A stretch of DNA of 64,000 nt, taken from Bacteroidales bacterium. GTDB lineage: Bacteria > Bacteroidota > Bacteroidia > Bacteroidales > JAIOZK01. The notes beneath the pieces are model-generated. The model was not told the DNA's origin and did not search any database. It saw only the letters and a list, made by a program, of their open reading frames with translations. Shown in pieces: positions 2,624-18,696 of this stretch. Numbering within the stretch: the stretch's first letter is position 1; every line of letters starts with the position of its first letter. The stretch is taken from contig JAIOZK010000002.1 of NCBI GenBank assembly GCA_021740625.1, positions 169,942-233,941 on the forward strand, read 5' to 3'. A program made the translations under genes and the position numbers.

Positions 2624-3319
2624 TTATTCTGTAATATCGGATTTTTTGATTTCAAATTCATTGATATCAAACAGGTATCTAACCATCTCCTTTTTCCTTT
2701 GCAAGGATTTACTATTGTGAGCATAGGTATCCCAAGAAGGTTCGTAATCATTGGACTGATTGCCCCAAACTTCCCATCCTTTTTTTGCCCCACGTGCAAA
2801 CATTTCAAGAAATGGCGCAGGACTGCATCTTTCAATTATATCATATTGTTCGTCTGGTTTTCTTGAATGTTCTTGTTTTCGGCTTTTAATAATGTTCACT
2901 TGACTGCGTGCCGGTCCAAGAGTCCTGAGTTTACCTCTGATTCCGAACAATATAATCTCAGTTGTATTCCTGAAATAAAAACCTACACCTCTTCCATCAG
3001 GACCACCATCTTTGCGTACCTTGTGCCAGATTATATTGGTTTTATATTCAAATCCCCAGCATTCCATAACCTCAAGGCCTTCCTTTAACAAAGCATTGGG
3101 AACCCATAAATAAAGATGACTTTGTTCCTTCATTGCTTCTTCCACAGGTATTTCCTTTATTTCATCAAGGCTCAGCGTTGGGTACCTTTGCAAACGTTTA
3201 TGCTCCGGAGCAACCTTTCCGGTTCTGTTTGTGAACTGCCATGGTGGATCGGCTAAAACCGTTCCGTAAAAATTCTTCCTTACTTTTTTGCGAAAATTAT
3301 CTTTTGCAGTTTCTTTCAT
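2624..3319 (-). CDS. MT-A70 family DNA methyltransferase (N6-adenine type), modification subunit of a type II R-M pair
   Basis: 231-aa ORF with the catalytic motif VLADPPWQF (DPPW) near the N-terminus, typical of the MT-A70 family. Its start abuts the stop of the upstream nuclease gene with zero gap. Confidence 0.8.
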   Translation of the reverse strand: MKETAKDNFRKKVRKNFYGTVLADPPWQFTNRTGKVAPEHKRLQRYPTLSLDEIKEIPVEEAMKEQSHLYLWVPNALLKEGLEVMECWGFEYKTNIIWHKVRKDGGPDGRGVGFYFRNTTEIILFGIRGKLRTLGPARSQVNIIKSRKQEHSRKPDEQYDIIERCSPAPFLEMFARGAKKGWEVWGNQSNDYEPSWDTYAHNSKSLQRKKEMVRYLFDINEFEIKKSDITE

Positions 3320-3910
3320 TTAGCAATCCTCGTTGTATAAGTTTTTTGTTATTCCGATAACCAGAATCGGACAACCTGCTCCACCGCCACCTTCAATTCT
3401 GGGTAAAAGCTTCGACATATGGGTTGTTGATGCTCCATATGATTTCCCTCTACCAAGATCTTCGAAAATTTGTTGTAATTCATCACATCTTGTAATGATC
3501 ACGCCCACACTTATTGCCCTCAAATCAAAAAGCAAACGAAAATTATTTAAATCTCTGTCGTAAAATGGATCTTTATTATTCCACTCAATTTCCAGTGCAA
3601 TCCTGTTTTTAAAGCAATCGACTTTATGTGTTGGAGAATTCATAAGATATTCATCAACTTGTACTGAAGTATCAAATTCTTTCTCCACCCATCCTCGTGA
3701 TTCAAGGAATCCATCAATGAAGTTAGCAACTTTAGATTTTTGTCCACCTCCAACTTCTATCCAGCTTTTACAAAGTGAAAAATTATTTAGTACATCAATG
3801 ATATCCTTGAATTCATTGGGAAAATCATTATATAAAATTGCCAGCGAGTGTTTCCACTCATGTATTTCATAGTTTCTCCGAATGTTTTCCTTCAGTATTT
3901 CTATACCCAT
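3320..3910 (-). CDS. Type II restriction endonuclease, BglII/BamHI-like fold (candidate)
   Basis: 196-aa ORF immediately upstream of the methyltransferase. The segment HKVDCFKNRIALEIEWNNKD has a D-(9 residues)-E-x-E spacing. As I recall it, this matches the BglII active-site arrangement D84/E93/Q95 (DIDFGKRDTLVEVQFSN). Confidence 0.6.
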   Translation of the reverse strand: MGIEILKENIRRNYEIHEWKHSLAILYNDFPNEFKDIIDVLNNFSLCKSWIEVGGGQKSKVANFIDGFLESRGWVEKEFDTSVQVDEYLMNSPTHKVDCFKNRIALEIEWNNKDPFYDRDLNNFRLLFDLRAISVGVIITRCDELQQIFEDLGRGKSYGASTTHMSKLLPRIEGGGGAGCPILVIGITKNLYNEDC

Positions 3911-4197: not shown

Positions 4198-6156
4198 ATG
4201 AGCTATATTAAGTTCGATAAATCAAAGCTGATCAACCTGGAATATTCGCTTTCGAAAGAGCTGGTGAGAACCAGTCGTTCTGGCGCATACGCTTCTACAA
4301 CACTGGTAGGATGCAATACGCGTAAATATCACGGTTTGCTGGTTGCGCCTCAGCCAGGAATAGATCATGATTTGCACGTGTTGTTGTCGAATCTGGATGT
4401 AACTGTGATGCAGCGGGAGGCCGAATTTAACCTCGGGCTTCACAAATTTCCCGGAAATGTTTATAATCCCAGGGGGCATAAATACGTCAGGGACTTTGAG
4501 GCAGATCCTATCCCCAGAATAACCTACCGTTTGGGTGGAGTTGTGTTGAGCATGGAGCGCCTTTTCCATACCCATGATGAAAGGATCATGATCAAATATA
4601 CACTGCTTGAGGCACATTCTCCCACAAAATTGCGTTTTAAGCCGTTTCTGGCATTCCGCAACATTCATGCATTGACCCGTGAAAACGTTTATTTTAATAA
4701 TAAGTATCATCAGGTTAAGAATGGTATTCAGGTAGAAATGTATGAGGGTTATACACCTCTGTTTATGCAGTTTTCAAAAGGAACGGAATATACGCATGTT
4801 CCCGACTGGTACTATAATATTGAGTATTTCCGCGAGCAGGAAAGAGGTTACGATTACCAGGAAGACCTTTACGTACCGGGTTTTTTTGAAACATCCATTA
4901 AAAAAGGTGAAAGCATAGTTTTTTCTGCTGGTCTCAGGCAGGCGCATGCACCATCCCTGAAAAGAATATTTGATGCTGAAATAGCCAAACGGGTACCCAG
5001 AAGCAATTTTGAAAATTGTCTGATCAATTCTGCTCAGCAATTGCTTATCAAGCAGGGAAGCGAAAGCAGTGTAATTGCTGGTCTTCCCTGGCATGGAATG
5101 CATGGAAGGGATACATTTGTTGCCCTGCCAGGGCTAACCCTGGTAAAGCGCGATTATAAAATGTTCCGCGCTGTTGTGAAAAGCATGAGCGAAATGATGA
5201 ACGGACCACTATTCCCCAGCCATCGAGAAGGCAGGGAGTTAAAATATCATTCCATCGATGCCTCCCTCTGGTTTATCTGGGCTTTACAACAATATTATAT
5301 CATTTCGGGTAATAGAGCAAAGATCTGGAAAGATTACGGCAAGCTGATCAAAAAGATCCTGAACGGATATAGGAAAGGAACTGACTTTGGCTTTGGCATG
5401 GACAAGGATTCTTTGATCAGTTCTTATTCGGATTTATACGGCCTGACATGGATGAACGCACGGGTCAATGATAAACCCGTTACTCCCAGAAATGGCAAAG
5501 CAGTCGAAATCAATGCACTTTGGTACAATGCCGTTTGTTTTGCACTGGAACTGGCTGAGAAGGAGAAAGACCAGGCATTTGCAAAGCAGTGGAAAACGAC
5601 ACCGGAAAAGATAAGGAATTCATTCATCGGGCTGTTCTGGGATCAGGATAAGGCTTTTCTGGCCGATTTTGCAGATGGGGCCAGGAAGTCATGGGATGTA
5701 CGCCCCAATCAGATCATCGCTGTTTCGCTCCGGTATTCTCCCCTGAGCGATCTGATGAAAAGAAATGTCCTCTATGTAGTCGAAAAAGAATTGCTGACAC
5801 CTCGGGGACTCCGTTCATTATCACCTAAGAATAAAGCATATAAAGGTAACTGTGAAGGCAATGAAAACGAACGGTCTGCAAGGCTCCACCAGGGAACGGC
5901 CTGGCCATGGCTGCTTGGACACTATGCCGAAGCAAAGTTTAACCTGGATGGTAATAAGGCCCTTCAGGAAATTCAAAAAATTTATTCCGGCTTTGAAGCA
6001 GAAATGCCGGAAGACGGAATCGGCAGCATATCGGAATATTATGCCGGTGATCCGCCATACAAGGCCGGTGGTGCTATTTCACAGGCATGGAATGTTGCTG
6101 AATTGCTGAGAATGCAATGGTTGATCAATCAAAATAAAAATAAGAAGGAGGAATAG
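4198..6156 (+). CDS. Glycogen debranching enzyme (amylo-alpha-1,6-glucosidase family, archaeal/bacterial GDE type)
   Basis: 652 aa. The N-terminus RTSRSGAYASTTLVGCNTRKYHGLLVAP is typical of the GDE N-terminal domain. The C-terminal (alpha/alpha)6-like region contains GLTWMNA...GKAVEINALWYNA...HQGTAWPWLLG. It is the first gene of the glucan operon. Confidence 0.85.
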   Translation: MSYIKFDKSKLINLEYSLSKELVRTSRSGAYASTTLVGCNTRKYHGLLVAPQPGIDHDLHVLLSNLDVTVMQREAEFNLGLHKFPGNVYNPRGHKYVRDFEADPIPRITYRLGGVVLSMERLFHTHDERIMIKYTLLEAHSPTKLRFKPFLAFRNIHALTRENVYFNNKYHQVKNGIQVEMYEGYTPLFMQFSKGTEYTHVPDWYYNIEYFREQERGYDYQEDLYVPGFFETSIKKGESIVFSAGLRQAHAPSLKRIFDAEIAKRVPRSNFENCLINSAQQLLIKQGSESSVIAGLPWHGMHGRDTFVALPGLTLVKRDYKMFRAVVKSMSEMMNGPLFPSHREGRELKYHSIDASLWFIWALQQYYIISGNRAKIWKDYGKLIKKILNGYRKGTDFGFGMDKDSLISSYSDLYGLTWMNARVNDKPVTPRNGKAVEINALWYNAVCFALELAEKEKDQAFAKQWKTTPEKIRNSFIGLFWDQDKAFLADFADGARKSWDVRPNQIIAVSLRYSPLSDLMKRNVLYVVEKELLTPRGLRSLSPKNKAYKGNCEGNENERSARLHQGTAWPWLLGHYAEAKFNLDGNKALQEIQKIYSGFEAEMPEDGIGSISEYYAGDPPYKAGGAISQAWNVAELLRMQWLINQNKNKKEE

Positions 6157-6159
6157 CAG

Positions 6160-7443
6160 ATGAAGGTTTTGATGTTTGGTTGGGAATTTCCACCCCATAT
6201 TACTGGGGGACTTGGAACTGCCTGTTTTGGATTGACAAAGGGATTGGCAAAACACAATGTGGATGTACAGTTTGTTGTGCCCAAAGCTTATGGTGATGAA
6301 AACCAGGAAGCTGTTCGCCTGCTTAGTGCCAGTGATGTTGAGATCGATGTGGAGGACCAGGAATACAAAGATTACTGGAATAGGATCTCCTACATGGAAA
6401 TTGGATCGAATATTATTCCTTATGTGGGGCCGGAAGAATTTAAAAAGCTGGTCGAAGAAAGTGAATTGAAAAAGGAACTGGCAGGCAGCAGTGTATTTAC
6501 ACGGAAATATAATTTCAGTGGTAAATACGGAAAGGACTTGCTGGAGGAAGTTTCCAGGTATGCCCTTATCGGTTCGGCCATCGCGGGAAAAAGCCATTTT
6601 GATGTTATTCACGCCCACGACTGGTTGACTTATCCTGCCGGGATCGCTGCAAAATACATCAGCGGAAAACCCCTCGTCGTTCATATGCATGCCACAGAAT
6701 ACGATCGCAGTGGTGAGAATATTAACCAGAGTGTTTTTGAGATCGAGAAAAAGGGAATGATGGAAGCTGACCGGGTTATTACCGTCAGCAATCTGACCCG
6801 GAAAACCGTTATCGAGAAATACGGCATCGATCCGAACAAGATCATAACAATTTACAATGCAGTTGAACCATCAGATAAAAGCCATCTTGCAGAGATCAGC
6901 AAAGCTGTGCCCGAAAAGATCGTGACTTTTCTTGGCAGGATTACCTTCCAGAAAGGCCCTGATTATTTTGTAGAGGCCGCTCACAAGGTGATCAAAAAGG
7001 ATCCCAATGTACGATTTGTCATGGCAGGAACCGGTGATATGATGAACAGGATGGTGAAACGCGTTGCGGAATTGCGCATAGGAACAAAATTCCACTTTAC
7101 AGGTTTTTTGAAAGGTCCCGATGTTGACAGGATGCTGGCGCAAAGCGATGTATTCGTTATGCCATCGGTTTCTGAACCCTTCGGGATTGTGCCCCTGGAG
7201 GCCATGCGATCGAATGTTCCGGTAGTCATCTCAAGGCAGTCGGGCGTTGCTGAAATTCTGAAACATGCCCTGAAAGTTGATTTCTGGGATGTGGACGCCA
7301 TGGCCGACTGTATTTACGGACTCATCAATTATGATGGTTTGTCGAAAATGTTTCGCCGTTACGGCAAAGATGAAGTGGATAGCCTGAAATGGGAAAATGC
7401 AGCCTATCATACGAAAAATGTATATTCTAGTTTATTAAATTAA
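6160..7443 (+). CDS. GT4-family glycosyltransferase, glycogen-synthase-like
   Basis: 427 aa. N-terminus MKVLMFGWEFPPHITGGLGTAC and C-terminal motif SEPFGIVPLEAMRSNVPVV (the E-x7-E region of retaining GT-B enzymes). Only 3 nt separate it from the debranching-enzyme gene. Confidence 0.8.
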   Translation: MKVLMFGWEFPPHITGGLGTACFGLTKGLAKHNVDVQFVVPKAYGDENQEAVRLLSASDVEIDVEDQEYKDYWNRISYMEIGSNIIPYVGPEEFKKLVEESELKKELAGSSVFTRKYNFSGKYGKDLLEEVSRYALIGSAIAGKSHFDVIHAHDWLTYPAGIAAKYISGKPLVVHMHATEYDRSGENINQSVFEIEKKGMMEADRVITVSNLTRKTVIEKYGIDPNKIITIYNAVEPSDKSHLAEISKAVPEKIVTFLGRITFQKGPDYFVEAAHKVIKKDPNVRFVMAGTGDMMNRMVKRVAELRIGTKFHFTGFLKGPDVDRMLAQSDVFVMPSVSEPFGIVPLEAMRSNVPVVISRQSGVAEILKHALKVDFWDVDAMADCIYGLINYDGLSKMFRRYGKDEVDSLKWENAAYHTKNVYSSLLN

Positions 7444-7458
7444 AATCCTGAGGAATCA

Positions 7459-9036
7459 ATGAGATCTATTTGCTTTTATTTTCAAGTACATCAGCCTTAT
7501 CGTTTGAGAACCTATCGCTTTTTCGACATTGGCGAAAGGCATGATTATTTTGATGAGATCAACAATGCGCTTATATTAAAAAGGGTTGCCGAAAAATGTT
7601 ACCTTCCAGCAAATGAAACCATTTACAACCTGATCAAAAAGTTCGGTGGCAGGTTCAAGGCCAGCTACTCCATTTCAGGAACAGCAATGGATCAGTTTGA
7701 AAAATTTGCTCCTGAGGTGCTGGATAGTTTTAAAAAACTGGCTTCTACCGGTCATGTGGAGTTTCTGGCAGAAACATACTCCCACAGCCTCTCCTCCCTG
7801 AAAAGCAAAGATGAGTTTTTTAAACAGGTCGATCTGCAGAAAAAACAAATAAAGAAATTTTTTGGCCAGGAGCCCAAAACATTCCGCAACACGGAGTTGA
7901 TCTATTCCGACGGGATTGGTGAAATGGTGGCTGAAATGGGTTTTGATACCATGCTGACGGAAGGAGCAAAACATGTGCTCGGCTGGAAAAGCCCGAATTT
8001 TTTGTATTGCAATGCGATCAATCCGAAACTAAAAATGTTGTTAAAAAATTTCAGCCTGAGTGACGATATTGCCTTCCGCTTTTCTCAGAGAAGCTGGCAG
8101 GACTGGCCCCTCACTGCGGAAAAATTCGCAGGATGGCTGAATCAGATCGACAGCAAACAGGAGATCATAAACCTGTTCATGGATTATGAAACATTCGGAG
8201 AACATCAATGGCCTGAAACGGGAATATTTGATTTCCTGAAAGCCATGCCCGAAAAGGTATTTGAGATGACAGATTTTGGTTTTACAACACCCTCCGAAGC
8301 ATCGGAAAAACTGCAGGTGGTTTCAGCCATTCATGTGCCCTACCCAATATCCTGGGCTGATGAAGAACGAGACCTGACCGCCTGGCTGGGCAATGAACTT
8401 CAGGATGAAGCCTTTGATAAATTGTACCAGATCGAAGAAAAAGTTAAATATTGCTCCGATCCACAGATTCAAAAAGACTGGCATTACCTGCAAACCAGCG
8501 ATCACTTTTATTATATGTGCACCAAATGGTTCTCGGATGGTGATGTGCATAAATATTTTAATCCCTATGGCACGCCCTACGAAGCTTTTATCAATTATAT
8601 GAATGTTTTGAGTGATTTTATCATCCGGGTAGATAAATGTTATGATCCTGTAAAAGCACGGGTAGGAGCATTGAAAGAGCAGGGAACACAGATTGCATCC
8701 AGGGTGAAATCTTCGGCGAAGAAACACACCGACCAATCCCTGAAAAGGATGCGTTCAAAACTGGAAGAACTTAAAGAGGGAGAAGCCGGATTTGAAGAGA
8801 TTGCAAAACTCTCCAATACGCGTTTGAAGGAAGCCCTCAGGAAAATCAATACCAGAGATCTTGTGATCGCCCTGAAAAACTCAAGCAAGGAGCTCAGGGA
8901 AAAGGTATACGGCAATCTTGGTAAGCGGGCCCAGAAAAACTTTGATGAGTTTGAGCGTAAATTCAGGGATGTCAAAAAAACGGATGTTAAAAAACAGCGA
9001 GAAAAGATCATGCGTCAAATTCGAAAGATCTTTTAG
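7459..9036 (+). CDS. Glycoside hydrolase family 57 (alpha-amylase / glucanotransferase type) with C-terminal FliG-C-like domain
   Basis: 525 aa. The N-terminus ICFYFQVHQPYRL...ETYSHS...MDYETFGEHQW is characteristic of GH57. Residues from about 445 to 525 match the FliG C-terminal signature (see finding). Confidence 0.85.
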   Translation: MRSICFYFQVHQPYRLRTYRFFDIGERHDYFDEINNALILKRVAEKCYLPANETIYNLIKKFGGRFKASYSISGTAMDQFEKFAPEVLDSFKKLASTGHVEFLAETYSHSLSSLKSKDEFFKQVDLQKKQIKKFFGQEPKTFRNTELIYSDGIGEMVAEMGFDTMLTEGAKHVLGWKSPNFLYCNAINPKLKMLLKNFSLSDDIAFRFSQRSWQDWPLTAEKFAGWLNQIDSKQEIINLFMDYETFGEHQWPETGIFDFLKAMPEKVFEMTDFGFTTPSEASEKLQVVSAIHVPYPISWADEERDLTAWLGNELQDEAFDKLYQIEEKVKYCSDPQIQKDWHYLQTSDHFYYMCTKWFSDGDVHKYFNPYGTPYEAFINYMNVLSDFIIRVDKCYDPVKARVGALKEQGTQIASRVKSSAKKHTDQSLKRMRSKLEELKEGEAGFEEIAKLSNTRLKEALRKINTRDLVIALKNSSKELREKVYGNLGKRAQKNFDEFERKFRDVKKTDVKKQREKIMRQIRKIF

Positions 9037-9120: not shown

Positions 9121-11682
9121 ATGATAGATTATCAACCGACAAATAATACTTATCCAGACTGGAAGAAAGTGCTGGTAAAGCCCATTATTCCCGAGAAATT
9201 GAAGGGATTGTTCATCCTTTCTAAAAATTTGTGGTGGTCCTGGAACCCTGATGTAAAAGAGGTTTTCCGGTCGATTAATCCGGAACTGTGGAAAGAATCG
9301 GAGCAAAATCCAGTGTCCATGCTTGAAAAATTAAATCTTGACCAGTTAAAGGACCTTGAAAATGATGCCGGTCTGATGGAACGCATCGAGAGAATATACC
9401 AGGCCTTTGAAGATTACATGGGCAAGGTTTATGAAAAACCCAGCGAACAGATTGCTTATTTCAGCATGGAATTTGGTTTGCACGAGAGTTTGAGAACATA
9501 CAGCGGAGGACTGGGTATCCTGGCAGGTGATTATTTAAAAGAAGCCAGCGACCAGAACAGGAATATGGTGGGAGTTGGCTTGTTGTATCGTTATGGTTAT
9601 TTTCAACAATCCCTTTCTGCATATGGCGAGCAAATCGCTTCTTATATTCCGCAACGTTTCAACCATCTACCATTGAATCCTGTACGGGATGAAAACGGCA
9701 CCTGGATCAAAGTTGATGTGGAACTCCCTGGCAGAACAATCTATGCCAAGGTCTGGCGGGTAGATGTTGGCCGTACTCCCCTTTTCCTGATGGATACGGA
9801 TATTCCCGATAATTCGGAAGAAGACAGGGCCATTACCCATAAACTGTATGGAGGAGATTCTGAGCATCGGCTCAAGCAGGAAATTTTGCTGGGCATCGGT
9901 GGAATCAAAATGCTGGATGAATTGAAACTGAAACCTGTGTTATTTCACAGCAATGAGGGGCATTCTGCATTTATTGGGGTTGAAAGATTGAGAAAACTGA
10001 TCAATGAAGAAAATTATTCTTTTGAAGATGCTGTTGAGTTTGTAAGATCTTCCACCTTGTTCACCACGCATACTCCTGTCCCCGCAGGTCATGACTATTT
10101 CTCGCACGACCTGGTAAAAACATATCTGGGTGATTATATTCAAAACCTGAAGATCAGCTTTGAGGAATTCATCGAACTGGGAAGACTGGCCGGTTCTCAT
10201 TTCGAAAACAGTTTTTCCATGTCGGTGCTGGCACTTAAATTATCCCAGGAAATCAACGGCGTGAGCAAGATCCATGGTAGGGTATCCAGGCAAATGTTTT
10301 CGACACTGTACCCGGAATACTTTGATGAAGAGCTGAACATCGGTTATGTGACCAATGGAGTGCACTTCGAAAGCTGGGCAGCCAGTGAAAGCGCAGCTTT
10401 GTATAAGAAGATGCTGGGAAGCATGGATCAGTTGCGTAACCCGAAAATGAAGCAATGGAGTGCGATGCAGAACCTTGATAACAAAGATATATGGGAGCTT
10501 CGCAGGCGTTTGAAATCAAGGCTCTTTACCTTTTTAAGGGAATCCATAGAAAGGGATATGATGCACAGGCAGGAAAATCCCAAAATTATTTTTAAAACAT
10601 TGGAGAATTTGCATGAGGGGGCACTGACAATAGGTTTTGCCCGCAGGTTTGCCACATATAAAAGAGCCGGTTTGTTGTTTTCAAATCTCGAACGACTGGC
10701 ACAGATCATCAATGACGAGGACCAGCCGGTAATCTTTATCTTTTCCGGGAAAGCGCATCCGAATGATGAAGCAGGCCAGGCCCTGATCAGAAGGATCATT
10801 GAAATATCCAAAAAACCTGAATTCATCGGCAGAATCATTTTTATTGAAAATTATAATATCGCAGTTGCAAGAAAACTGGTTCAGGGTGTTGATCTTTGGC
10901 TAAACACACCTACAAGGCCCATGGAAGCTTCCGGGACGAGTGGTCAAAAGGCTGCTCTGAATGGTGTGCTGAACCTAAGTGTGCTTGATGGATGGTGGGC
11001 CGAAGGTTATAAACCAGGCGCCGGCTGGATGATCAAAGAGGAAAAAACCTACGAAGATCAGCATTTCCAGGATGAACTGGATGCCGAAAGCATTTACAAC
11101 ATCCTCGAAAATGAAATCATCCCCACTTATTTTGAAAGGGATGATAACAGCATTCCCAATCCTTGGGTGGATACGATCAAGAACAACATGGAATGGATCA
11201 GTCCACAATTTACCATGACACGGATGATGAATGATTATTTTGAGCAGTATTATCATCCCCTGATGGAGCGACATCGTTTCCTGTTACAGAACAATCGTAT
11301 TGCCAGCTTTACTTCCTGGAAAAGAAAAATAAAAAGAAACTGGAGCCGGATTGCCCTTGAGGAAGCCAGGATCCCCGATCCCACAAAGGAACCACTGAAC
11401 CTGGGTGAGAATTTCAGAGCGGACCTTCAAATCAAAGCTCCCGGACTGAGTGAGAAGGACCTTGGCGTAGAAGTCATTTTCGGACAAAAGGAAAATGATC
11501 AAATCGAAAAGATCGTTATCAGGCATGAATTGTCCTTTGTTGAAAAAAAGGAAGGCAATTATTTATTCCGTTGTGAATTTCCCCTGATCAATACCGGGGT
11601 TTGGGACTATGCTTTCAGAATTTATCCCCAAAATGAATTGATGCATCACAGGCTCGACCTGCCATTGATAAAATATTTTTAA
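9121..11682 (+). CDS. glgP: Alpha-glucan phosphorylase (GT35, maltodextrin/glycogen phosphorylase)
   Basis: 853 aa. It has NLWWSWNPD near the N-terminus, GGLGILAGDYLKEASD, and the PLP-lysine region PMEASGTSGQKAALNG. Confidence 0.9.
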   Translation: MIDYQPTNNTYPDWKKVLVKPIIPEKLKGLFILSKNLWWSWNPDVKEVFRSINPELWKESEQNPVSMLEKLNLDQLKDLENDAGLMERIERIYQAFEDYMGKVYEKPSEQIAYFSMEFGLHESLRTYSGGLGILAGDYLKEASDQNRNMVGVGLLYRYGYFQQSLSAYGEQIASYIPQRFNHLPLNPVRDENGTWIKVDVELPGRTIYAKVWRVDVGRTPLFLMDTDIPDNSEEDRAITHKLYGGDSEHRLKQEILLGIGGIKMLDELKLKPVLFHSNEGHSAFIGVERLRKLINEENYSFEDAVEFVRSSTLFTTHTPVPAGHDYFSHDLVKTYLGDYIQNLKISFEEFIELGRLAGSHFENSFSMSVLALKLSQEINGVSKIHGRVSRQMFSTLYPEYFDEELNIGYVTNGVHFESWAASESAALYKKMLGSMDQLRNPKMKQWSAMQNLDNKDIWELRRRLKSRLFTFLRESIERDMMHRQENPKIIFKTLENLHEGALTIGFARRFATYKRAGLLFSNLERLAQIINDEDQPVIFIFSGKAHPNDEAGQALIRRIIEISKKPEFIGRIIFIENYNIAVARKLVQGVDLWLNTPTRPMEASGTSGQKAALNGVLNLSVLDGWWAEGYKPGAGWMIKEEKTYEDQHFQDELDAESIYNILENEIIPTYFERDDNSIPNPWVDTIKNNMEWISPQFTMTRMMNDYFEQYYHPLMERHRFLLQNNRIASFTSWKRKIKRNWSRIALEEARIPDPTKEPLNLGENFRADLQIKAPGLSEKDLGVEVIFGQKENDQIEKIVIRHELSFVEKKEGNYLFRCEFPLINTGVWDYAFRIYPQNELMHHRLDLPLIKYF

Positions 11683-11754: not shown

Positions 11755-14580
11755 TTGAAAATGGTCAGATCATTTGTCATCGGGCTTATTATCCTTGCAG
11801 CAATTCACTTTCAGCCGGTTTGTGCCGACCAGTTGAACATCCCTGAAATGCCTGATGAACATGATAGCCTGAGCCTTTTAACCATTGAATTTCTGAACCA
11901 GCTTGATACCAACAGGATTTTCAAAGAGCGGCCACTTGAGATCATTGATCTTGTTGACCGGATTGTTGAAAAAATAAACCGAAAAGAAGATTTTGATACC
12001 ATCATACCTGCAATCAATGAATTTGGCGTGCGTATGCGCAACAAGGGTATCTACATTCCCGCCCTTGAAATTCAGAACAAAGCTGCTGAATTGTCGCAAA
12101 GTGCGGGAGAACCTGGCAACCTTGCCATATCTTACAACAACATAGGTGTGATTTACCGAAGAATGGATGATTATCACAATGCAACCCTGTATCACCTGAA
12201 AGCATTGAGAATTTCGGACAGTCTTGACAACAAGCATGGGAAAGCTGTTGCGCTCAACAGTATTGGAAATATCGAATTTTCGATGGGCAATTATAATTCA
12301 GCACGACGTAATTTCCTGCATGCACTTCAGTTGGAAGAAGAAGTAAAAGTAAAAAGAGGTGTTGCGATCAATCTGAATAACATAGGCAATGTTTACATGA
12401 AACAGCATGATTATGCCACAGCCCTGGGTTATTATATGCGATCTCTGGAGGTTAATGAAAGCATCAACGAGAAAAGAGGAATTGCCATTTGTTATGACGA
12501 TATAGGAAATGTCTATTTAACCCTTGGAAACAACATCAAGAGCCTTGAATATTTTTTGAAGGCGCTGGAGATCAATCAGAAAATTGGTGATAAGCGTTTT
12601 ACTGCCAATAGTTTTATGAATGTAGGCAAGGCTTTCAAGGAACTCAAAGAATATAATCAAGCTTTGATATACAGCAATAAGGGATTGAAACTAGCACTTG
12701 AGATCAATGCAAGATCAAAGATCAGGGACTCATATGCGCTCATCTCAACGATTTTTACGCATATTGATCAGTATGATTCTGCTCTTTATGCCTACCGCAT
12801 GTCGGTAAATTATAAGGACAGTATACTCAATGAGACCAACCGCAGAAACATTGCGTGGCTGAAAACCGAATTTGAAACCGAGCGAAAGGAAAATGAAATC
12901 AACAACCTGCAAAACCAGGCACGCATCAACAGGGCCATTTCCATGCTGGCCAGTATTGGTGCCTCGGTTTTTCTGGTCATAGCTGCAGTGATCCTTTGGC
13001 TTTATTCTATCAACAGAAAGAAAACCCGGCTGCTCGGTGAAAAAAATGAAGAGATCAATAAGAAACAAGAGGAACTGAAAGAATATGCGGATAAATTATT
13101 GCTTGCCAAGGAACAGGCGGAAAAAGCCAATCAGACCAAAAGTAAATTTCTTGCCAATATCAGTCATGAGATCCGAACTCCCCTGAATTCGGTGATCGGT
13201 TTTACAGACATCCTGGAAAGTCAGATCAATCATGAATTGCACCGGGATTATCTTGAATCCATAAAATCCAGCGGGAAAAGCCTTCTCTCACTGATCAATG
13301 ATATTTTAGACCTGTCCAAAATTGAAGCCGATAAACTGGAAATTGATTTTGGTCCGGTAAAACTCGATAGCCTGCTCAAAGAACTCAGGAATATTTTCAT
13401 TCTGAAGGCAGAAGAAAAAGGACTGGAGTTCAGGATTACAATTGATCCGGAATTGCCTGAGCAACTTATCCTGAGTGAAGCCAGGCTCAGACAGATCCTT
13501 TTTAACCTGGTCGGGAATTCACTTAAATTTACAGAAAAAGGATTTATTGATTTGAGGGCTCAGAAAATAAAATGTAAGAATGAAAAATTCATCGGATTAA
13601 GACTTTCGGTTGTTGATACCGGCATTGGAATAGCTCCTGGTGACCAGGAACGTATTTTTGAACCGTTCAGTTACGACCATAGCTCTGAAGAAATCAAGGC
13701 TGAAAGCACAGGTTTGGGACTCAGCATCTCCAAAAGGCTGGTTGAAATGATGGGGGGTGAGATAAAGCTTGAAAGTGAGCCCGGGAAAGGAAGTACGTTT
13801 TCGGTAATTTTTCCTTCTGTAAGAATAATTCAGCCTCGACAGGATCATGAAAGCATGCCGGGTAAGGATTTTAGAAATATTCAATTCAGGAATGCCAGGG
13901 TTCTGGTGGTGGATGATATAAAAACAAACCGCCGCCTGCTGGCAGATATGCTATCCGGCAGAAATATCACCATCGTTGAAGCTCAGAATGGTTATGATGC
14001 GGTAAAGAAAATCATATCTGATCCACCAGATTTGATCTTAATGGACATTCGCATGCCAGTGTTGAATGGAATTGATGCTTTTCGGAAAGTCAGGCAGTAT
14101 AAAGAAATACGGCATATTCCAATTATTGCTATCACGGCCTATGCTTTGAAAGAAGAAAAGAAAGCATTTCTTGAAATGGGATTTGATGGCTATCTGCCCA
14201 AACCCATTAAAATCGAGGATTTGATCAAAGAGCTCAAAAAGCATCTTCCACATGAGGAAAGGCCGGATCGACAGGAAAAGAGCTTGTCAAAAGAACCGTT
14301 GTCCGACAGAATCGACCAGGAAGATCTTGGCAAACTGGAACCGAAAGATTTTGAAGACTTTATTACCAAATGGCATGATGTAAGAAAAAAACAATCTATC
14401 AGTGAAATCATTGAATTCGGAGAAGAAATTATGTTGGAAGGGCAAAAGCAAAAAAATCATGTATTGATCCGTTATGGTGAGCTTCTGTTGAGAAAAGCCC
14501 GTTCATTTAATGTGGAGAAAATGAATGAAACATTAATGGATTTTGTAAAACTCTTCCCGGAAGATGTTTCTCTTCAATAG
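11755..14580 (+). CDS. Hybrid sensor histidine kinase: signal peptide, TPR repeats, TM helix, HisKA, HATPase, receiver, C-terminal helical (HPt-like, no obvious His) tail
   Basis: 941 aa. The track start is a TTG at 11755 and an ATG follows at 11761. It has repeated TPR-like units ([16 protein letters not shown] and others), the H-box [14 protein letters not shown], the G-boxes VVDTGIGI / GLGLSI, and the receiver motif VLVVDD...LILMDIRMP. Confidence 0.85.
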
Positions 14581-14606
14581 ATCAATGCATAATATAGGGG
14601 GTTCAT

Positions 14607-15761
14607 ATGTTTGAGATGAAAAATGAGCAGCAAAGTATACTGATCGTCGATGATATGCCAAAAAATATTCAGATCCTCGGGAATATACTTTACAGGGAAG
14701 GTTTTAAATTATCTTATGCACAGAGTGGGGAAGAAGCACTTGAACTTATTCAGATGAATCCCTATGATTTGATTTTGCTTGATATCATGATGCCGCAGAT
14801 GAATGGTTACGATGTTTGTGAGCGGATCAGGGGAAAAGAATCCACGCGCGAGATTCCCATCATTTTCTTAACGGCCAAAACGGATAAGGAAAGCATCGTG
14901 AAGGGGCTTTGCCTGGGAGCCCAGGATTATATTACGAAGCCTTTCAGCTCAGAGGAATTGATCCAACGTGTAAAGACCCACCTCCTGATTCGTTCTCAGA
15001 AAGAGCAATTAAAAAATGTGAACAAAACCCTGGAGAAAAAAGTAGAAGAGAGAACCAATCAGCTCAGGATTGCAAATGAGCAGCTCAAAAGCCTGGAAAA
15101 GGCCAAAAGTGAGTTTCTCAGCATCATCAGCCATGAATTGAGAACACCATTGAATGGGATCATGGGACTTACGGACCTTTTGAAGAATTCAATACAATCA
15201 AAGGAAAACCGGGAATACATCAATTATCTTAAAGAAGCTTCGGAAAGACTGGCGCGCTTTAGCGAGACCGCCATTTTAATCACAACCCTTAAATCGGAAC
15301 AGTATAAGTTTAATTTTACTTCCCAGAAAATAAAATACCTTATAGAGAATATTTTCGAAAGTTATGAGGAACGTTTCAGAGAAAAGAATATAACCCTAGA
15401 AATTGGAGCGTATGAGGATGATCTCCAGATCAACATTGATTTTGACCTGATCAAAACCTGTCTTGAGAATTTGCTTAACAATGCTTTGAAATTCTCACCG
15501 AAAGGCAGCAGGGTTCGTATTGACATTGATCAGAAGAAAGAATTTACAAACATTGGGATCAGTGATGAAGGACCTGGCTTCAACAGACAGGCCATGAACA
15601 ATATGTTTGAATATTTTTCCAATGCCGAAACTTCTCATTTTGAAGGAATCGGTCTTTCGCTGGCTGCCACAAAACTGATCATGGACGCTCATCAGGGTAA
15701 AATCCATATTGAGAACAATGAAAGTGCAGGTGCAAGGGTATGTCTGAGGTTCCCAAATTAA
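14607..15761 (+). CDS. Response-regulator receiver fused to histidine kinase (REC-HisKA-HATPase)
   Basis: 384 aa. N-terminal receiver ILIVDDMPKN...LILLDIMMPQMNG, H-box FLSIISHELRTPLN, and an ATPase with ISDEGPGF and GIGLSL. Confidence 0.85.
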   Translation: MFEMKNEQQSILIVDDMPKNIQILGNILYREGFKLSYAQSGEEALELIQMNPYDLILLDIMMPQMNGYDVCERIRGKESTREIPIIFLTAKTDKESIVKGLCLGAQDYITKPFSSEELIQRVKTHLLIRSQKEQLKNVNKTLEKKVEERTNQLRIANEQLKSLEKAKSEFLSIISHELRTPLNGIMGLTDLLKNSIQSKENREYINYLKEASERLARFSETAILITTLKSEQYKFNFTSQKIKYLIENIFESYEERFREKNITLEIGAYEDDLQINIDFDLIKTCLENLLNNALKFSPKGSRVRIDIDQKKEFTNIGISDEGPGFNRQAMNNMFEYFSNAETSHFEGIGLSLAATKLIMDAHQGKIHIENNESAGARVCLRFPN

Positions 15762-16614: not shown

Positions 16615-18696
16615 TTGAATATCATAACTGATTTCCCACACTGGTTTATTATTTTTTGTCTCCTGCTGGGGGCATTGTTTGCATTTTTGCTTTATTACAA
16701 AGATAAGAGGTCGGAAATACCGCTATGGCTGAAAAGTATGCTGGCTCCGATCAGGTTTCTGGTAATCAGCCTGATTGCCTTTTTACTACTTTCACCGCTG
16801 ATCAAATCCAGAACCCGCGTAGAAGAGAAACCAAAAGTGATCTTTTTTCAGGATAATTCAAGGTCGATCATTGCCAGCAGTGATTCCTCTTATTACCAGA
16901 ATCAATACCCTGATTTGCTTTCTTCTTTTCTGCAGAAACTGGAAAACAATGCTAGTGTCAAAAAGTATCTCTTCGATGAAAATGTTGAAGAGATGAGCGG
17001 GCTTTCTTTTGACGGACTCAGAACTGATTTTTCAAAAATTCCCGATCTCATCGAGAACAATTACACCAACCGGAATGTTGCGGCAGTGATCCTTGCCAGC
17101 GACGGGATTTACAATACAGGTGCCGATCCCCTGTACGCTATGCGCAGTATCAATTACCCGGTTTATACCCTGGGGCTTGGAGATACCGGTCTCAAACCCG
17201 ATGTGGTTGTCCGCGATATTGACCATAATAAAATTGCTTTCTCAGGCAATGAATTTCCGGTGGAAGTTAACATTCAGGCTGATAGGTGCGAAGGCAGGAA
17301 ATTATCTGTCAGCATTGAGTACCAGGGCCGGAATCTGCGTCAAAAACAATTATTCATCGGCAAGCAGGAATTTAATCAAAACCTGCGATTCATGCTGGAG
17401 GCAGGCAGTCCGGGCATGCGTAAATATACGGTCGTGCTCGATGATCTGGAGAATGAAACGAATTTCAAGAATAACCGGAAGAATTTTTTTATAGAGGTAA
17501 TTGATAATAAAAGTAAAATATTGATCCTTTACAATGGTCCCCATCCTGATATTGCAGCCATAAATTCTGCTCTGATCGATAAAGATAATTACGAAATTGA
17601 AATGCAATCCCTGTCAGAATTCAAGGGAGATCTTGGAAACTACGCCCTTGCCATATTGCACCAGATTCCTTCGAATACCCGTTATGCAGCTAATTTGCAT
17701 GAACAATTGAAGCAGAATAAAACATCGTTACTCTTTATTTTGGGGCCGCAAAGCAACCTGAATTTTTTCAATAACCTCAACAGTGGATTAAAGATCAGCA
17801 GCAACAGCAATGCTTTTGAAGATGCTTTTCCTGCCATTAACCCGGAATTTGTTTCCTTTTCGATTGATGAGGCAAGCCGGAATCAAATCAGGGAGTTTCC
17901 ACCTCTGCAGGTTTTTTTCGGCAATTACATACAGAGCAATGCCATCCAAAAGCTTTTAAACCAGAGGATCGGAAGTGTTGTTACAGATAAAGCACTTATT
18001 GCCTTTAATACAGCCGTGAAAAACAAAACAGGTTTCATTTGCGGAACGGGTATCTGGAGATGGAGGATAGAGGATAATAAACTTACGGGCAATCAGCATG
18101 CTTTTAATGCCTTGATCGGGAAGATTGTGCAATATCTGGTCATAAAGGAGGATAAGCGTAAATTCAGGGTAGATACAAAGAAGCAGATCACTGAAAATGA
18201 AAATGTGATTTTCGAGGCTGAATTATACAACGATAACTTTGAGCTGGTCAATGATCCAGAAGTAAGGATTATGCTGCAGGATCTGAAGAATAATAAATAT
18301 CCCTATACATTCAGCAAAAGGGGAAATGCTTATTATCTGAATGCCGGAAAACTGCAAACCGGTGAATACAATTACAGGGCAGAAACACAACTGGGTATTA
18401 AGAACTATGTGGAAGAAGGTGTTTTCATTGTTTCCGGTTTAAACATTGAACAAAGCAGGTTGAGGGCCGATCATAATCTTCTTTTTCGTTTAGCGGATGA
18501 ACATGGTGGCAGATTGCTCTACACCGGTGAACTGGAAGACTTTGCGGATGAACTAAGCGCCCGGGATAATTTTAAAACCGTACTTTCCTATTCCAAATCT
18601 TATGCGGAATTAATCAACCTGTCCTGGTTGCTCGGACTGATCATTTTGTTGTTGAGCATTGAATGGTTCCTGCGAAAATGGAGTGGAACATATTAG
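16615..18696 (+). CDS. Large membrane-anchored protein of unknown function (vWA/BatA-like N-terminal double TM, C-terminal TM)
   Basis: 693 aa with a TTG start. Two N-terminal TM helices are followed by VAAVILASDGIYNTGADP (vWA-like). The C-terminal hydrophobic helix ends LSIEWFLRKWSG, as in Bat-like proteins. The function is not recognisable. Confidence 0.5.
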   Translation: MNIITDFPHWFIIFCLLLGALFAFLLYYKDKRSEIPLWLKSMLAPIRFLVISLIAFLLLSPLIKSRTRVEEKPKVIFFQDNSRSIIASSDSSYYQNQYPDLLSSFLQKLENNASVKKYLFDENVEEMSGLSFDGLRTDFSKIPDLIENNYTNRNVAAVILASDGIYNTGADPLYAMRSINYPVYTLGLGDTGLKPDVVVRDIDHNKIAFSGNEFPVEVNIQADRCEGRKLSVSIEYQGRNLRQKQLFIGKQEFNQNLRFMLEAGSPGMRKYTVVLDDLENETNFKNNRKNFFIEVIDNKSKILILYNGPHPDIAAINSALIDKDNYEIEMQSLSEFKGDLGNYALAILHQIPSNTRYAANLHEQLKQNKTSLLFILGPQSNLNFFNNLNSGLKISSNSNAFEDAFPAINPEFVSFSIDEASRNQIREFPPLQVFFGNYIQSNAIQKLLNQRIGSVVTDKALIAFNTAVKNKTGFICGTGIWRWRIEDNKLTGNQHAFNALIGKIVQYLVIKEDKRKFRVDTKKQITENENVIFEAELYNDNFELVNDPEVRIMLQDLKNNKYPYTFSKRGNAYYLNAGKLQTGEYNYRAETQLGIKNYVEEGVFIVSGLNIEQSRLRADHNLLFRLADEHGGRLLYTGELEDFADELSARDNFKTVLSYSKSYAELINLSWLLGLIILLLSIEWFLRKWSGTY

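What the first reader, a model, noticed from the sequence alone, without database searches (positions are those of the whole stretch)
8791..9036. FliG C-terminal-like domain fused to a GH57 alpha-glucan enzyme
The last ~80 residues of the GH57 protein read FEEIAKLSNTRLKEALRKINTRDLVIALKNSSKELREKVYGNLGKRAQKNFDEFERKFRDVKKTDVKKQREKIMRQIRKI. Aligned without gaps to the E. coli FliG C-terminal domain as I recall it (FENLVDVDDRSIQRLLQEVDSESLLIALKGAEQPLREKFLRNMSQRAADILRDDL...), it shares the signature FE...L.IALK.....LREK...N...RA. It also shares the downstream V(R/K)....(E/R).K.I....R(R/K)(L/I). The domain is joined to the catalytic domain by a charged, probably coiled linker (residues ~395-444).

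FliG_C-type helical modules (also present in the MgtE N-terminal domain) are protein-interaction or torque-transmission modules. I do not expect one on a glycogen-metabolising enzyme, and this lineage is generally non-flagellated. It could mediate oligomerisation, tethering to glycogen granules or the membrane, or regulation.
Basis: partly seen in the sequence, partly recalled or inferred. Interest (0 to 1): 0.6.

Follow-up and report, generated by a model that had tools for sequence, protein, structure and literature searches.

The report
Flagellar FliG domain on glycogen enzyme
A glycogen-metabolising GH57 enzyme from an uncultured Bacteroidota bacterium really does end in a copy of the small helical domain that normally contacts the stator in flagellar motors; the fusion is common in one group of relatives and already flagged by annotation pipelines, but its job is unknown and is most likely tethering or partner binding rather than anything to do with motility.

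Summary
ORF 7459..9036 (+), 525 aa, is a GH57 enzyme whose last ~86 residues are a true homologue of the FliG C-terminal six-helix subdomain (FliG_CC): Pfam FliG_C 60 bits against a cutoff of 23.3; E 1e-11 to Thermotoga FliG; predicted fold TM 0.85-0.90, rmsd ~1 A. Only FliG_CC was captured. The 48-residue linker has no FliG homology, there are no FliG N/M/ARM_C parts, and it is not MgtE_N.

The gene lies in a conserved glycogen cluster (GH133 debrancher, GT4, GH57, phosphorylase). All 120 closest protein clusters carry the tail, and NCBI already names some "FliG C-terminal domain-containing protein". I found no paper on it.

Among 80 species-level orthologues with the same catalytic core, 16 have the FliG_CC tail, 37 have a non-FliG extension (usually Lys-rich, histone-H1-like, many with a coiled-coil-like stretch), and 27 have none. 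The extension is basic in 116 of 117 members (mean +9) on an acidic core (mean -16), whereas FliG C-domains are about neutral.

Best reading (inferred): a flexibly tethered, non-catalytic, basic localisation or partner-binding module. It is a real, moderately interesting domain shuffle, not a motility component.

The parts
7459..9036 (+). Whole ORF (525 aa + stop): GH57 enzyme with a C-terminal FliG_CC domain
   Evidence: ORF list. 100% identical to database protein P0001; 120 homologues share the same architecture. Pfam GH57 + FliG_C.
7459..8631 (+). Conserved GH57 core (residues 1-391): (beta/alpha)7 catalytic domain plus helical region. The invariant residues include E146 and D242, which lie in GH57-type motifs.
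   Evidence: PF03065 covers residues 6-293 at E 1e-76. Invariant columns run up to R390. Fold search finds GH57 structures (1k1x, 2b5d, 7e1y, 3p0b) at only 12-16% identity. The core is shared at 53-71% identity by 80 species-level orthologues.
8632..8775 (+). Variable basic linker (residues 392-439), net charge +8 for residues 393-439 as computed
   Evidence: Predicted helices 397-415 and 421-439 at pLDDT 54-72. Length 13-61 residues and poorly conserved across the family. No homology to FliG (hhalign probability 0.3%).
8776..9033 (+). FliG_CC-like six-helix domain (residues 440-525), net charge +11
   Evidence: PF01706 at 60 bits. PDB FliG hits at E 1e-11. Tail-only AlphaFold model pLDDT 89.9 with six helices. 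Foldseek TM 0.85-0.90 to FliG_C structures. hhalign 99.1% to FliG residues 233-318.
4198..6156 (+). [quoted passage not shown]
   Evidence: Pfam. Found upstream of GT4-GH57 in 73 of 81 loci (the 80 related loci plus the window), whatever the tail type.
6160..7443 (+). GT4/GT5-like glycosyltransferase (glycogen-synthase-like), immediately upstream; its stop lies 15 bp before the GH57 start
   Evidence: Pfam. Adjacent to GH57 in 77 of 81 loci (the 80 related loci plus the window).
9121..11682 (+). Alpha-glucan phosphorylase (DUF3417 + GT35), immediately downstream. This is the short form, lacking the GT3 glycogen-synthase half seen in most related loci.
   Evidence: Pfam. Related loci have 1400-1470-aa GT3-DUF3417-GT35 fusions.
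11755..14580 (+). TPR hybrid histidine kinase following the cluster (context; possibly regulatory)
   Evidence: Pfam. A TPR histidine kinase occupies the same position in Ca. Sulfidibacterium hydrothermale (L082).

Best explanation
Shown: the gene encodes a cytoplasmic GH57 alpha-glucan enzyme of the conserved Bacteroidota glycogen cluster (GH133 debrancher, GT4, GH57, then a phosphorylase). In one group of Bacteroidales-like lineages this enzyme carries, after a flexible basic linker, a single FliG_CC six-helix bundle. That bundle was captured by domain shuffling exactly at FliG's natural hinge boundary.

Inferred: the tail is a non-catalytic accessory module that positions the enzyme. It does not transmit torque. 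It belongs to a set of alternative C-terminal appendages found on the same catalytic core: no extension, a Lys/Ala/Pro/Thr-rich histone-H1-like tail (in many cases after a coiled-coil-like stretch), or a linker plus FliG_CC. The property these appendages share is strong positive charge attached to an acidic enzyme body. The most likely mechanism is that the basic linker and tail dock the enzyme, and with it the glycogen particle it works on, to an acidic or polyanionic partner. That partner could be an acidic protein surface within the glycogen machinery, the nucleoid, polyphosphate or the membrane. The conserved exposed ridge that contacts the stator in FliG is the probable contact surface; here it has become more basic.
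For: Identity of the domain.

Cluster context and conserved synteny across all tail types.

The tail is an accessory to a shared core. Of 80 species-level orthologues (core identity 53-71%), 16 have FliG_CC, 37 have another extension with no recognisable domain (usually Lys-rich), and 27 have none.

Charge. The extension is net basic in 116 of 117 FliG_CC-bearing members (mean +9) while the core averages -16. In the window protein the core is -13, the linker +8 and the tail +11, and the last 133 residues carry +19 against 0.3 +/- 6.1 for 32 other window proteins. The Lys-rich sister tails carry roughly +15 to +33. FliG C-domains from the representative search average -0.6. Some fragments combine a Lys-rich low-complexity linker with FliG_CC (P0146, P0153, net about +20).

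Constraint on the domain. Hydrophobic core and helix-cap positions are conserved at 25-45% pairwise identity. There are family-specific near-invariant residues (S452, K457, K493, K507, K512, E518), and the torque-ridge charges are partly retained: R281 equivalent 85% basic, D288 equivalent 88% acidic, R297 equivalent 78% basic.

Flexible attachment: low-confidence, length-variable linker.

Precedent for basic tails tethering storage granules: the PhaM PAKKA lysines and the PhaF histone-like C-terminus attach PHA granules to the nucleoid (PMC9049629; PMC3556143).

FliG_C is a promiscuous module in other non-FliG proteins: ECF sigma factor, AraC, Wzy_C and MotA/ExbB fusions, and tandem arrays.
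Against: No partner was identified. No gene in the window or in the 8-kb flanks of 80 loci co-varies with the tail type apart from the downstream phosphorylase, and that association is confounded by phylogeny. GT4, GDE and GP show no length or charge difference by tail type.

Functional equivalence of FliG_CC with the Lys-rich tails is inferred only from their occupying the same position on orthologous cores. The tree is unresolved at depth (bootstrap 15% or less), so replacement events cannot be demonstrated.

A folded, sequence-constrained domain is more than simple electrostatic tethering requires, which points towards a specific protein partner. Lys-richness is partly compositional (window GC 42%). 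No binding, localisation or activity data exist. AlphaFold coordinates and PAE were not available to test whether the tail docks back onto the core.
Confidence: 0.4

Rival explanations
1. Specific protein-protein adaptor within a glycogen multi-enzyme complex. The FliG_CC domain binds one defined partner of the cluster (the GT3-GT35 synthase/phosphorylase fusion, the GT4 or the debrancher), so that chain elongation, remodelling and breakdown are coordinated on one particle. The charge is incidental.
For: FliG_C is a known protein-interaction module (established knowledge of FliG). The fold and a set of surface residues are conserved well beyond bulk charge. The cluster partners are acidic, with GP net about -14 to -18 and GT4 about -6. 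Extended forms of either kind are more often followed directly by the phosphorylase gene (FliG_CC 10/17, Lys-rich 28/37) than tail-less forms (4/27).
Against: No partner feature co-varies with the tail. The GP association follows phylogeny, since the tail-less set is mostly one Cyclobacteriaceae clade. The same core works without any tail in many species. The window's own GP lacks the GT3 half yet the tail is retained.
Confidence: 0.25
2. Stator-type docking. The tail retains FliG's charged ridge and binds the cytoplasmic face of a MotA-family proton channel (ExbB, TolQ, GldL or an orphan MotA). This would place glycogen mobilisation at a pmf-driven machine or regulate that machine.
For: The ridge residues equivalent to R281, D288 and R297 are 78-88% conserved in charge. 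The predicted fold matches FliG in the MotAB-bound structure 8ucs_H (TM 0.86). MotA_ExbB-FliG_C fusion proteins exist (P0195, P0238). One of them sits on a contig with T9SS Por_Secre_tail and Y_Y_Y two-component genes and no flagellar genes within 17 kb.
Against: K264 is only 56% conserved. The D289 equivalent is acidic in about 54%. The Gly-Pro loop and the C-terminal GEIVI segment of FliG are lost. The ridge has gained lysines (E284 to K493, L298 to K507), so its charge pattern differs from FliG. Nearly half of the tail residues are charged, so some charge conservation is expected anyway. No MotA-family gene lies near any of the 80 loci or in the window. Orthologues do without the tail or use low-complexity tails. 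The taxonomy of the P0238 contig is uncertain.
Confidence: 0.05
3. Autoregulatory or self-association element. The basic linker and tail fold back on, or bridge between, the acidic catalytic bodies. This would modulate access to the active site, or drive oligomerisation or condensate formation on glycogen.
For: Opposite charges: core about -16, extension about +9. Long flexible linker. Many sister orthologues have a coiled-coil-like segment at the same position.
Against: The cores of tail-less orthologues are just as acidic (mean -13.7), so the core charge is not a co-adaptation to the tail. FliG_CC alone is not the part of FliG that mediates FliG-FliG stacking (established knowledge). No structural evidence of docking was available.
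Confidence: 0.12
4. Functionally neutral passenger. The tail is a shuffled domain retained as an inert spacer or solubility tag with no specific ligand.
For: The tail is dispensable in many orthologues. It evolves much faster than the core, with tail column identity about 52% against about 70% for the whole protein.
Against: It is present in 120 of 120 nearest clusters, with constant length, preserved fold-determining residues and several near-invariant surface residues. L034 still passes the Pfam cutoff despite strong divergence. Together these indicate purifying selection.
Confidence: 0.12
5. Chance or compositional similarity of a Lys/Glu-rich helical tail to FliG, with no true homology.
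For: The region is highly charged and helical, and weak spurious hits to apolipoprotein and phasin models occur in the linker.
Against: Pfam E 2.7e-16 above the gathering cutoff; PDB E 1e-11; hhalign 99.1%; 38% identity and rmsd about 1 A to T. maritima FliG_C; hydrophobic core positions match column by column.
Confidence: 0.01

Closest known systems
FliG C-terminal subdomain (FliG_CC, helices C-alpha 1-6; Pfam PF01706), e.g. Thermotoga maritima FliG 1QC7/1LKV/4FHR and the MotAB-bound FliG 8UCS
   Same: Homologous sequence (38% identity to T. maritima). Same six-helix fold (TM 0.85-0.90). Same N-terminal boundary at the hinge Phe. Conserved core residues and N277, A282 and K273 equivalents. 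Charge of the torque-ridge residues R281, D288 and R297 is largely retained.
   Different: It stands alone on a GH57 enzyme, with no FliG_N, FliG_M or ARM_C. It lacks FliG's Gly-Pro loop and the terminal GEIVI segment. It is net basic (+5 to +6 on average, +11 here) instead of about neutral. It has its own near-invariant residues S452, K457, K493, K507, K512 and E518. There is no flagellar gene context.
MgtE N-terminal domain (PF03448), the other well-known FliG-like helical module
   Same: Same Pfam clan and a helical repeat fold. It is also a non-flagellar use of a FliG-like module (established knowledge).
   Different: The tail scores only 14.1 bits against MgtE_N (cutoff 25.9) but 60 bits against FliG_C. 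It is a direct FliG_C relative, not an MgtE_N-type domain.
GH57 alpha-amylase-like enzymes of GT4-GH133-GH57 glycogen clusters (described for archaea such as Picrophilus torridus in Chem Rev 2024, PMC11046441); solved GH57 structures AmyC 2B5D and TLGT 1K1W
   Same: GH57 fold and motifs (HQP in region I; invariant E146 and D242). Same three-gene neighbourhood of GH133 debrancher, GT4 and GH57.
   Different: Only 12-16% identical to any solved GH57. Does not match the branching-enzyme fingerprints HxHLP and ELF(Y)GHW quoted in PMC11206854 (the window protein has HQPYR and ETFGEH). None of the characterised enzymes carries a FliG_C tail. Catalytic specificity is unknown.
Histone-H1-like lysine-rich tails of storage-granule proteins PhaM (PAKKA motifs) and PhaF
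   Same: Functional analogy only: a basic C-terminal appendage on a protein of a carbon-storage granule, shown to attach granules to the nucleoid (PMC9049629, PMC3556143). Sister orthologues of this GH57 carry very similar AKKPA/KKTT-type tails.
   Different: The window protein has a folded FliG_CC domain, not a low-complexity tail. There is no homology. DNA or polyanion binding is untested for any of these GH57 tails.
Other non-FliG proteins carrying FliG_C (found here): MotA_ExbB-FliG_C, ECF sigma-FliG_C x3, AraC-FliG_C, Wzy_C-FliG_C, tandem FliG_C proteins
   Same: They show FliG_C behaves as a mobile module, usually C-terminal and attached by a low-complexity linker.
   Different: Different partner domains. 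Their FliG_C copies are only 24-38% identical to the GH57 tail, and those inspected are acidic rather than basic. None is characterised.

Membership tests
FliG_C domain family (Pfam PF01706) | Profile match above the curated gathering score | tested here: met
   60.2 bits against a cutoff of 23.3, E 2.7e-16, residues 436-523. All 120 nearest homologues carry a precomputed PF01706 hit.
FliG_C domain family (Pfam PF01706) | Six-helix FliG_CC fold | tested here: met
   AlphaFold tail model at pLDDT 89.9 with six helices. Foldseek TM 0.85-0.90 and rmsd 0.8-1.4 A to 1qc7, 3ajc, 4fhr and 8ucs. This is a prediction, not an experimental structure.
FliG_C domain family (Pfam PF01706) | Charged 'torque helix' ridge (E. 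coli K264, R281, D288, D289, R297) | tested here: inconclusive
   Equivalents: K473 is 56% Lys; R490 is 85% basic; D496 is 88% acidic; E497 is about 54% acidic; K506 is 78% basic (with the 1-residue gap as in the HMMER alignment). E. coli numbering was taken from a sequence recalled from memory and checked against the known residue numbers. The domain is nearly half charged residues, so partial retention is weak evidence.
FliG, flagellar rotor/switch protein (TIGR00207 equivalog) | Full-length match with the N (FliF-binding) and M (FliM-binding) domains and ARM_C | tested here: not met
   TIGR00207 scores 48 bits against a cutoff of 226.7, matching only model positions 198-320. There are no FliG_N or FliG_M hits. 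The linker has no FliG homology.
FliG, flagellar rotor/switch protein (TIGR00207 equivalog) | Flagellar gene neighbourhood or a flagellated host | tested here: not met
   The neighbours are glycogen enzymes and histidine kinases. No other FliG_C-like or MotA-like ORF occurs in the window or in 80 loci. Whole-genome absence of flagella could not be tested; it rests on general knowledge of Bacteroidota.
MgtE_N domain (PF03448) | Profile match above the gathering score | tested here: not met
   14.1 bits against a cutoff of 25.9, E 0.07.
Glycoside hydrolase family 57 | GH57 profile match and conserved catalytic Glu (region III) and Asp (region IV) | tested here: met
   PF03065 at 258.6 bits. E146 and D242 are invariant within the motifs RNTE and MDYETFGEH in 47 sequences. 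Fold search returns GH57 structures. Assigning these residues as nucleophile and acid/base is by analogy with characterised GH57 enzymes (established knowledge), not tested.
GH57 glycogen branching enzymes | Fingerprints HxHLP (region I) and ELF(Y)GHW (region IV), as quoted in PMC11206854 | tested here: not met
   The window protein has VHQPYR and YETFGEHQW. The NCBIfam branching-enzyme model scores 17 bits against a cutoff of 920. This does not exclude branching activity, a question raised for such 'amylase-like' GH57s in PMC11046441.
Histone-H1-like / PAKKA-type basic tails (PhaM/PhaF-like) | Low-complexity Lys/Ala/Pro repeats that bind DNA | tested here: not met
   The window tail is a folded helical domain. 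Such repeats occur only in sister orthologues, e.g. L078, L080, L036. DNA binding is not testable with these tools.

The most novel reading that the evidence does not exclude
The FliG_CC module on this glycogen enzyme keeps enough of FliG's stator-contacting ridge to dock onto a MotA-family proton channel (ExbB, TolQ, GldL or an orphan MotA-like protein) in a non-flagellated bacterium. That would physically couple glycogen mobilisation to a pmf-driven envelope machine. It would also show that the rotor-stator interface has been reused as a general adaptor outside flagella. The MotA_ExbB-FliG_C fusion proteins found in metagenomes hint at the same idea.
Probability: 0.05. Interest if true: 0.85.

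Novelty: new variant of a known kind. Interest (0 to 1): 0.4.

Why it matters
If the tail has a defined partner, it would be one of the first functional assignments for a FliG_C domain outside the flagellar motor. It would also reveal how some Bacteroidota organise or position their glycogen machinery, a process with no known localisation factors in bacteria.

The comparative pattern offers a ready-made natural experiment for what C-terminal appendages do to a storage-polymer enzyme: the same catalytic core with no tail, with a histone-H1-like tail, or with a basic FliG_CC domain. It parallels the nucleoid tethering of PHA granules by PhaM and PhaF.

The catalytic core is itself an uncharacterised GH57 subfamily in the GH133-GT4-GH57 cluster, whose role, possibly the missing branching activity, is an open question in the alpha-glucan field (PMC11046441).

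If the tail proves to be an inert or merely electrostatic appendage, the finding is a tidy example of domain shuffling and little more.

Tried and rejected
1. MgtE_N as the better assignment: rejected (14 bits, below cutoff).

2. The linker as a degenerate FliG ARM_C remnant. HMMER envelopes reaching FliG positions ~198-245 suggested this. It is rejected: the linker-only profile has no similarity to FliG, and the linker+tail profile aligns only from residue ~439.

3. A second FliG_C-like or MotA-like gene nearby as partner: none in the 64-kb window or in 80 loci with 8-kb flanks.

4. Neighbourhood co-variation with tail type. The GDE-GT4-GH57 synteny is the same in all types. Only the downstream phosphorylase differs, and that follows phylogeny. 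There are no length or charge differences in GT4, GDE or GP.

5. One gain followed by repeated losses or replacements. The first NJ tree suggested this, but bootstrap support for all deep nodes is 15% or less, so the claim was dropped.

6. Literature. Searches for GH57+FliG, 'family 57'+FliG, FliG-like+non-flagellar and FliG_C/PF01706 found nothing relevant. The first search hit only 'GH5_7' and 'time-of-flight'. PMC8789113 used PF01706 only to fetch FliG.

7. Pontibacter PoGH57 as a characterised orthologue: rejected, because it is a DUF3536-type GH57.

8. Canonical GH57 branching enzyme: the fingerprints are absent.

9. Exhaustive representative search with the tail. The GH57 fusion itself did not appear as a strong hit, apparently because its 50%-identity cluster representative lacks the tail. 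The search was useful only for finding other FliG_C architectures.

10. Cluster names for those architectures: almost none carry organism names.

11. AFDB fold search: the library was unavailable.
Full report
**Observation.** The quoted peptide is exactly what window 8791-9036 (+) encodes. It forms residues 445-525 of a 525-aa ORF at 7459..9036. The N-terminal part is a GH57 domain (PF03065, E 1e-76, residues 6-293). The C-terminus matches Pfam FliG_C (PF01706) at 60.2 bits against a gathering score of 23.3 (E 2.7e-16, residues 436-523). NCBIfam's full-length FliG model matches only its positions 198-320 and scores 48 bits against a cutoff of 226.7, so this is a domain and not a FliG protein. 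MgtE_N scores 14 bits, below its cutoff. Against PDB sequences the tail finds Thermotoga, Helicobacter and Aquifex FliG at E 1e-11 to 1e-9.

**Structure.**
- A full-length AlphaFold model built on 47 homologues (pLDDT 76.8) predicts six short helices in residues 445-524 at pLDDT about 85. They follow two long low-confidence helices, 397-415 and 421-439.
- A tail-only model has pLDDT 89.9.
- It superposes on FliG C-terminal domains (1qc7, 3ajc, 4fhr, 3usw, 8ucs) with TM 0.85-0.90 and rmsd 0.8-1.4 A over 80 residues, at 38% identity to T. maritima FliG.
- Profile-profile comparison shows that only residues ~439-524 align, to FliG 233-318 (99.1%, E 9.5e-19). The linker alone has no similarity.
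- The captured unit is therefore FliG_CC, cut at the natural hinge. ARM_C and the N and M domains are absent.

**Comparison with FliG, column by column** (120 GH57 tails against 36 FliG representatives; E. coli numbering from a recalled sequence that reproduces the published positions).
- Retained: the hinge Phe, the hydrophobic core, and the K273, N277 and A282 equivalents.
- Largely retained in charge: the R281 (85% basic), D288 (88% acidic) and R297 (78% basic) equivalents.
- Weakly retained: K264 (56% Lys) and the D289 equivalent (about 54% acidic).
- Lost: the Gly-Pro loop and the terminal GEIVI segment.
- New near-invariant residues: S452, K457, K493, K507, K512 and E518.
- The former stator-contacting ridge is therefore still a conserved surface, but it is more basic.

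**Context.** The gene is the third of four co-directional glycogen genes:
- GDE_N/GDE_C debranching enzyme (4198..6156);
- a GT4/GT5-like glycosyltransferase (6160..7443);
- GH57-FliG_CC (7459..9036);
- a DUF3417-GT35 alpha-glucan phosphorylase (9121..11682).

TPR and response-regulator histidine kinases follow. The complete genome of Ca. Sulfidibacterium hydrothermale has the same order, including the TPR kinases. The GH133-GT4-GH57 trio is the cluster noted in archaea by a 2024 review, which asks whether this 'amylase-like' GH57 is a missing branching enzyme (PMC11046441). The catalytic core is only 12-16% identical to any solved GH57 and lacks the published branching-enzyme fingerprints. 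Its specificity is open.

**Distribution.**
- The 120 best database clusters (59-100% identity) all carry PF03065 plus PF01706. They come from Bacteroidota, Bacteroidales and Marinilabiliales MAGs and from Ca. Sulfidibacterium.
- NCBI names several of them 'FliG C-terminal domain-containing protein'.
- In a species-level genome scan, at least 595 loci encode relatives, and the best 80 are all Bacteroidota.
- Testing each full ORF with a tail HMM gave 16 with the FliG_CC tail, 27 with essentially no extension (396-418 aa; Algoriphagus, Cyclobacteriaceae, Anditalea and others) and 37 with a different extension of 37-140 residues.
- That other extension is usually Lys/Thr/Ala/Pro-rich and histone-H1-like, in many cases preceded by a coiled-coil-like stretch, and contains no Pfam domain.
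- GDE-GT4-GH57 synteny is the same in all three classes.
- A neighbour-joining tree of the core places the FliG_CC forms mostly together. Bootstrapping supports only shallow groups made up solely of FliG_CC sequences (86-100%) and no deep node (15% or less). The number of gains, losses or replacements cannot be stated.
- A single fusion event is the parsimonious reading, because all tails share the same boundaries and family-specific residues.

**Charge.**
- The tails are net basic: mean about +5 to +6, range -1 to +12, and +11 in the window.
- FliG C-domains found by the same query average -0.6.
- Linker plus tail is basic in 116 of 117 members (mean +9), on a core averaging -16.
- The window protein's last 133 residues carry +19, against 0.3 +/- 6.1 for 32 other proteins in the window.
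- The Lys-rich sister tails carry about +15 to +33.
- Fragments exist that combine a Lys-rich linker with FliG_CC.
- Cores of tail-less orthologues are equally acidic, and cluster partners do not differ by tail class.

**FliG_C elsewhere.** An exhaustive search with the tail found 297 proteins at E of 1e-3 or better. Besides FliG and fragments of the GH57 fusion, these include tandem FliG_C proteins and fusions to an ECF sigma factor, AraC, Wzy_C, FliM/FliN and MotA_ExbB. One MotA_ExbB-FliG_C gene lies among T9SS-tail and Y_Y_Y two-component genes, without flagellar neighbours. No such gene is near any GH57 locus, and no other FliG_C-like ORF occurs in the window or in the 80 loci.

**Interpretation.** What is shown: a genuine FliG_CC domain, under purifying selection on its fold, is flexibly attached to a probably active GH57 enzyme in a conserved glycogen cluster, in one part of a Bacteroidota orthologue family. 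Its other members have a Lys-rich tail or none. What is inferred: the tail is a non-catalytic positioning or partner-binding module whose selected property includes positive charge. It would be analogous in role to the Lys-rich tails, which resemble the PhaM and PhaF histone-like tails that tether PHA granules to the nucleoid (PMC9049629; PMC3556143). I give this about 0.4. The rivals are a specific partner within the glycogen machinery (0.25), an autoregulatory or self-association role (0.12), a neutral passenger (0.12), and docking to a MotA-family channel (0.05, the most novel reading). Chance similarity is excluded.

**Novelty and score.** The architecture is already visible in public annotation, and it is not rare within its clade. 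I found no paper describing or testing it. It is a new variant of known kinds: GH57 enzymes and FliG_C modules. A flagellar rotor domain on a glycogen enzyme in a phylum regarded as non-flagellated is a moderate surprise to a specialist. That close orthologues dispense with it or use low-complexity tails argues against an elaborate mechanism. Interest: 0.4.

Noticed in passing
window 9121..11682 (+); compare L002:9681-13994, L082:11855-16060: The phosphorylase downstream of GH57 is 853 aa here (DUF3417 + GT35). In most related loci the equivalent gene is a 1400-1470-aa fusion of a GT3 eukaryote-type glycogen synthase (PF05693) with DUF3417-GT35. The window copy lacks the synthase half, and only 84 bp separate it from the GH57 stop.
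   Followed up: partly
window 2624..3910 (-): Adjacent BglII-family restriction endonuclease (3320..3910) and MT-A70 methyltransferase (2624..3319), a probable type II restriction-modification pair just upstream of the glycogen cluster.
   Followed up: no
window 16615..18696 (+): A 693-aa ORF with no Pfam match at E of 1e-3 or better. Homologues lie next to the same short-chain dehydrogenase downstream of the glycogen cluster in L001 and L034.
   Followed up: no
window 11755..15761 (+); L082:16998-21584: A TPR hybrid histidine kinase and a response-regulator/histidine-kinase follow the glycogen cluster. TPR histidine kinases occupy the same position in Ca. Sulfidibacterium hydrothermale, which suggests a conserved regulatory link.
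   Followed up: partly
L011, L012, L014, L036, L038, L053, L057, L078, L080 and others (C-termini of the GH57 orthologues): Many orthologues end in histone-H1-like Lys/Ala/Pro/Thr-rich low-complexity tails (net +15 to +33), in many cases after a coiled-coil-like segment. This resembles the PhaM/PhaF/AlgP-type tails, here on a glycogen enzyme.
   Followed up: partly
L081:8001-9512 (protein P0238); also P0195: MotA_ExbB-family four-TM proteins fused through a Pro/Glu-rich linker to an acidic FliG_C domain. P0238 sits among Y_Y_Y hybrid kinases and a Por_Secre_tail (T9SS) protein, with no flagellar genes within 17 kb. A stator-like and a rotor-like module in one polypeptide is unexplained.
   Followed up: partly
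proteins P0131, P0174, P0193, P0123, P0128: FliG_C occurs in other unexpected architectures: ECF sigma factor with three FliG_C copies, Wzy_C O-antigen ligase + FliG_C, AraC HTH + FliG_C, and proteins made of two to four tandem FliG_C domains (one named from Treponemataceae).
   Followed up: partly
protein P0137 (220 aa, 951-bp contig): The sequence reads as a signal peptide and what I recognised by eye as a SusC-like N-terminal (CarboxypepD_reg-type) domain, not confirmed by a profile search, joined directly to a GH57-type FliG_CC tail. On so short a contig this is probably an assembly chimera or a fragment.
   Followed up: no
window 7963..8085 (residues 169-209 of the GH57): This stretch is among the most conserved of the protein, with many invariant residues (E168, G169, H172, W176, S201-D203, R207...). 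Yet it is the worst-predicted part of the AlphaFold model (pLDDT below 50). It may be a substrate-binding loop or lid that needs a ligand or partner to order.
   Followed up: no
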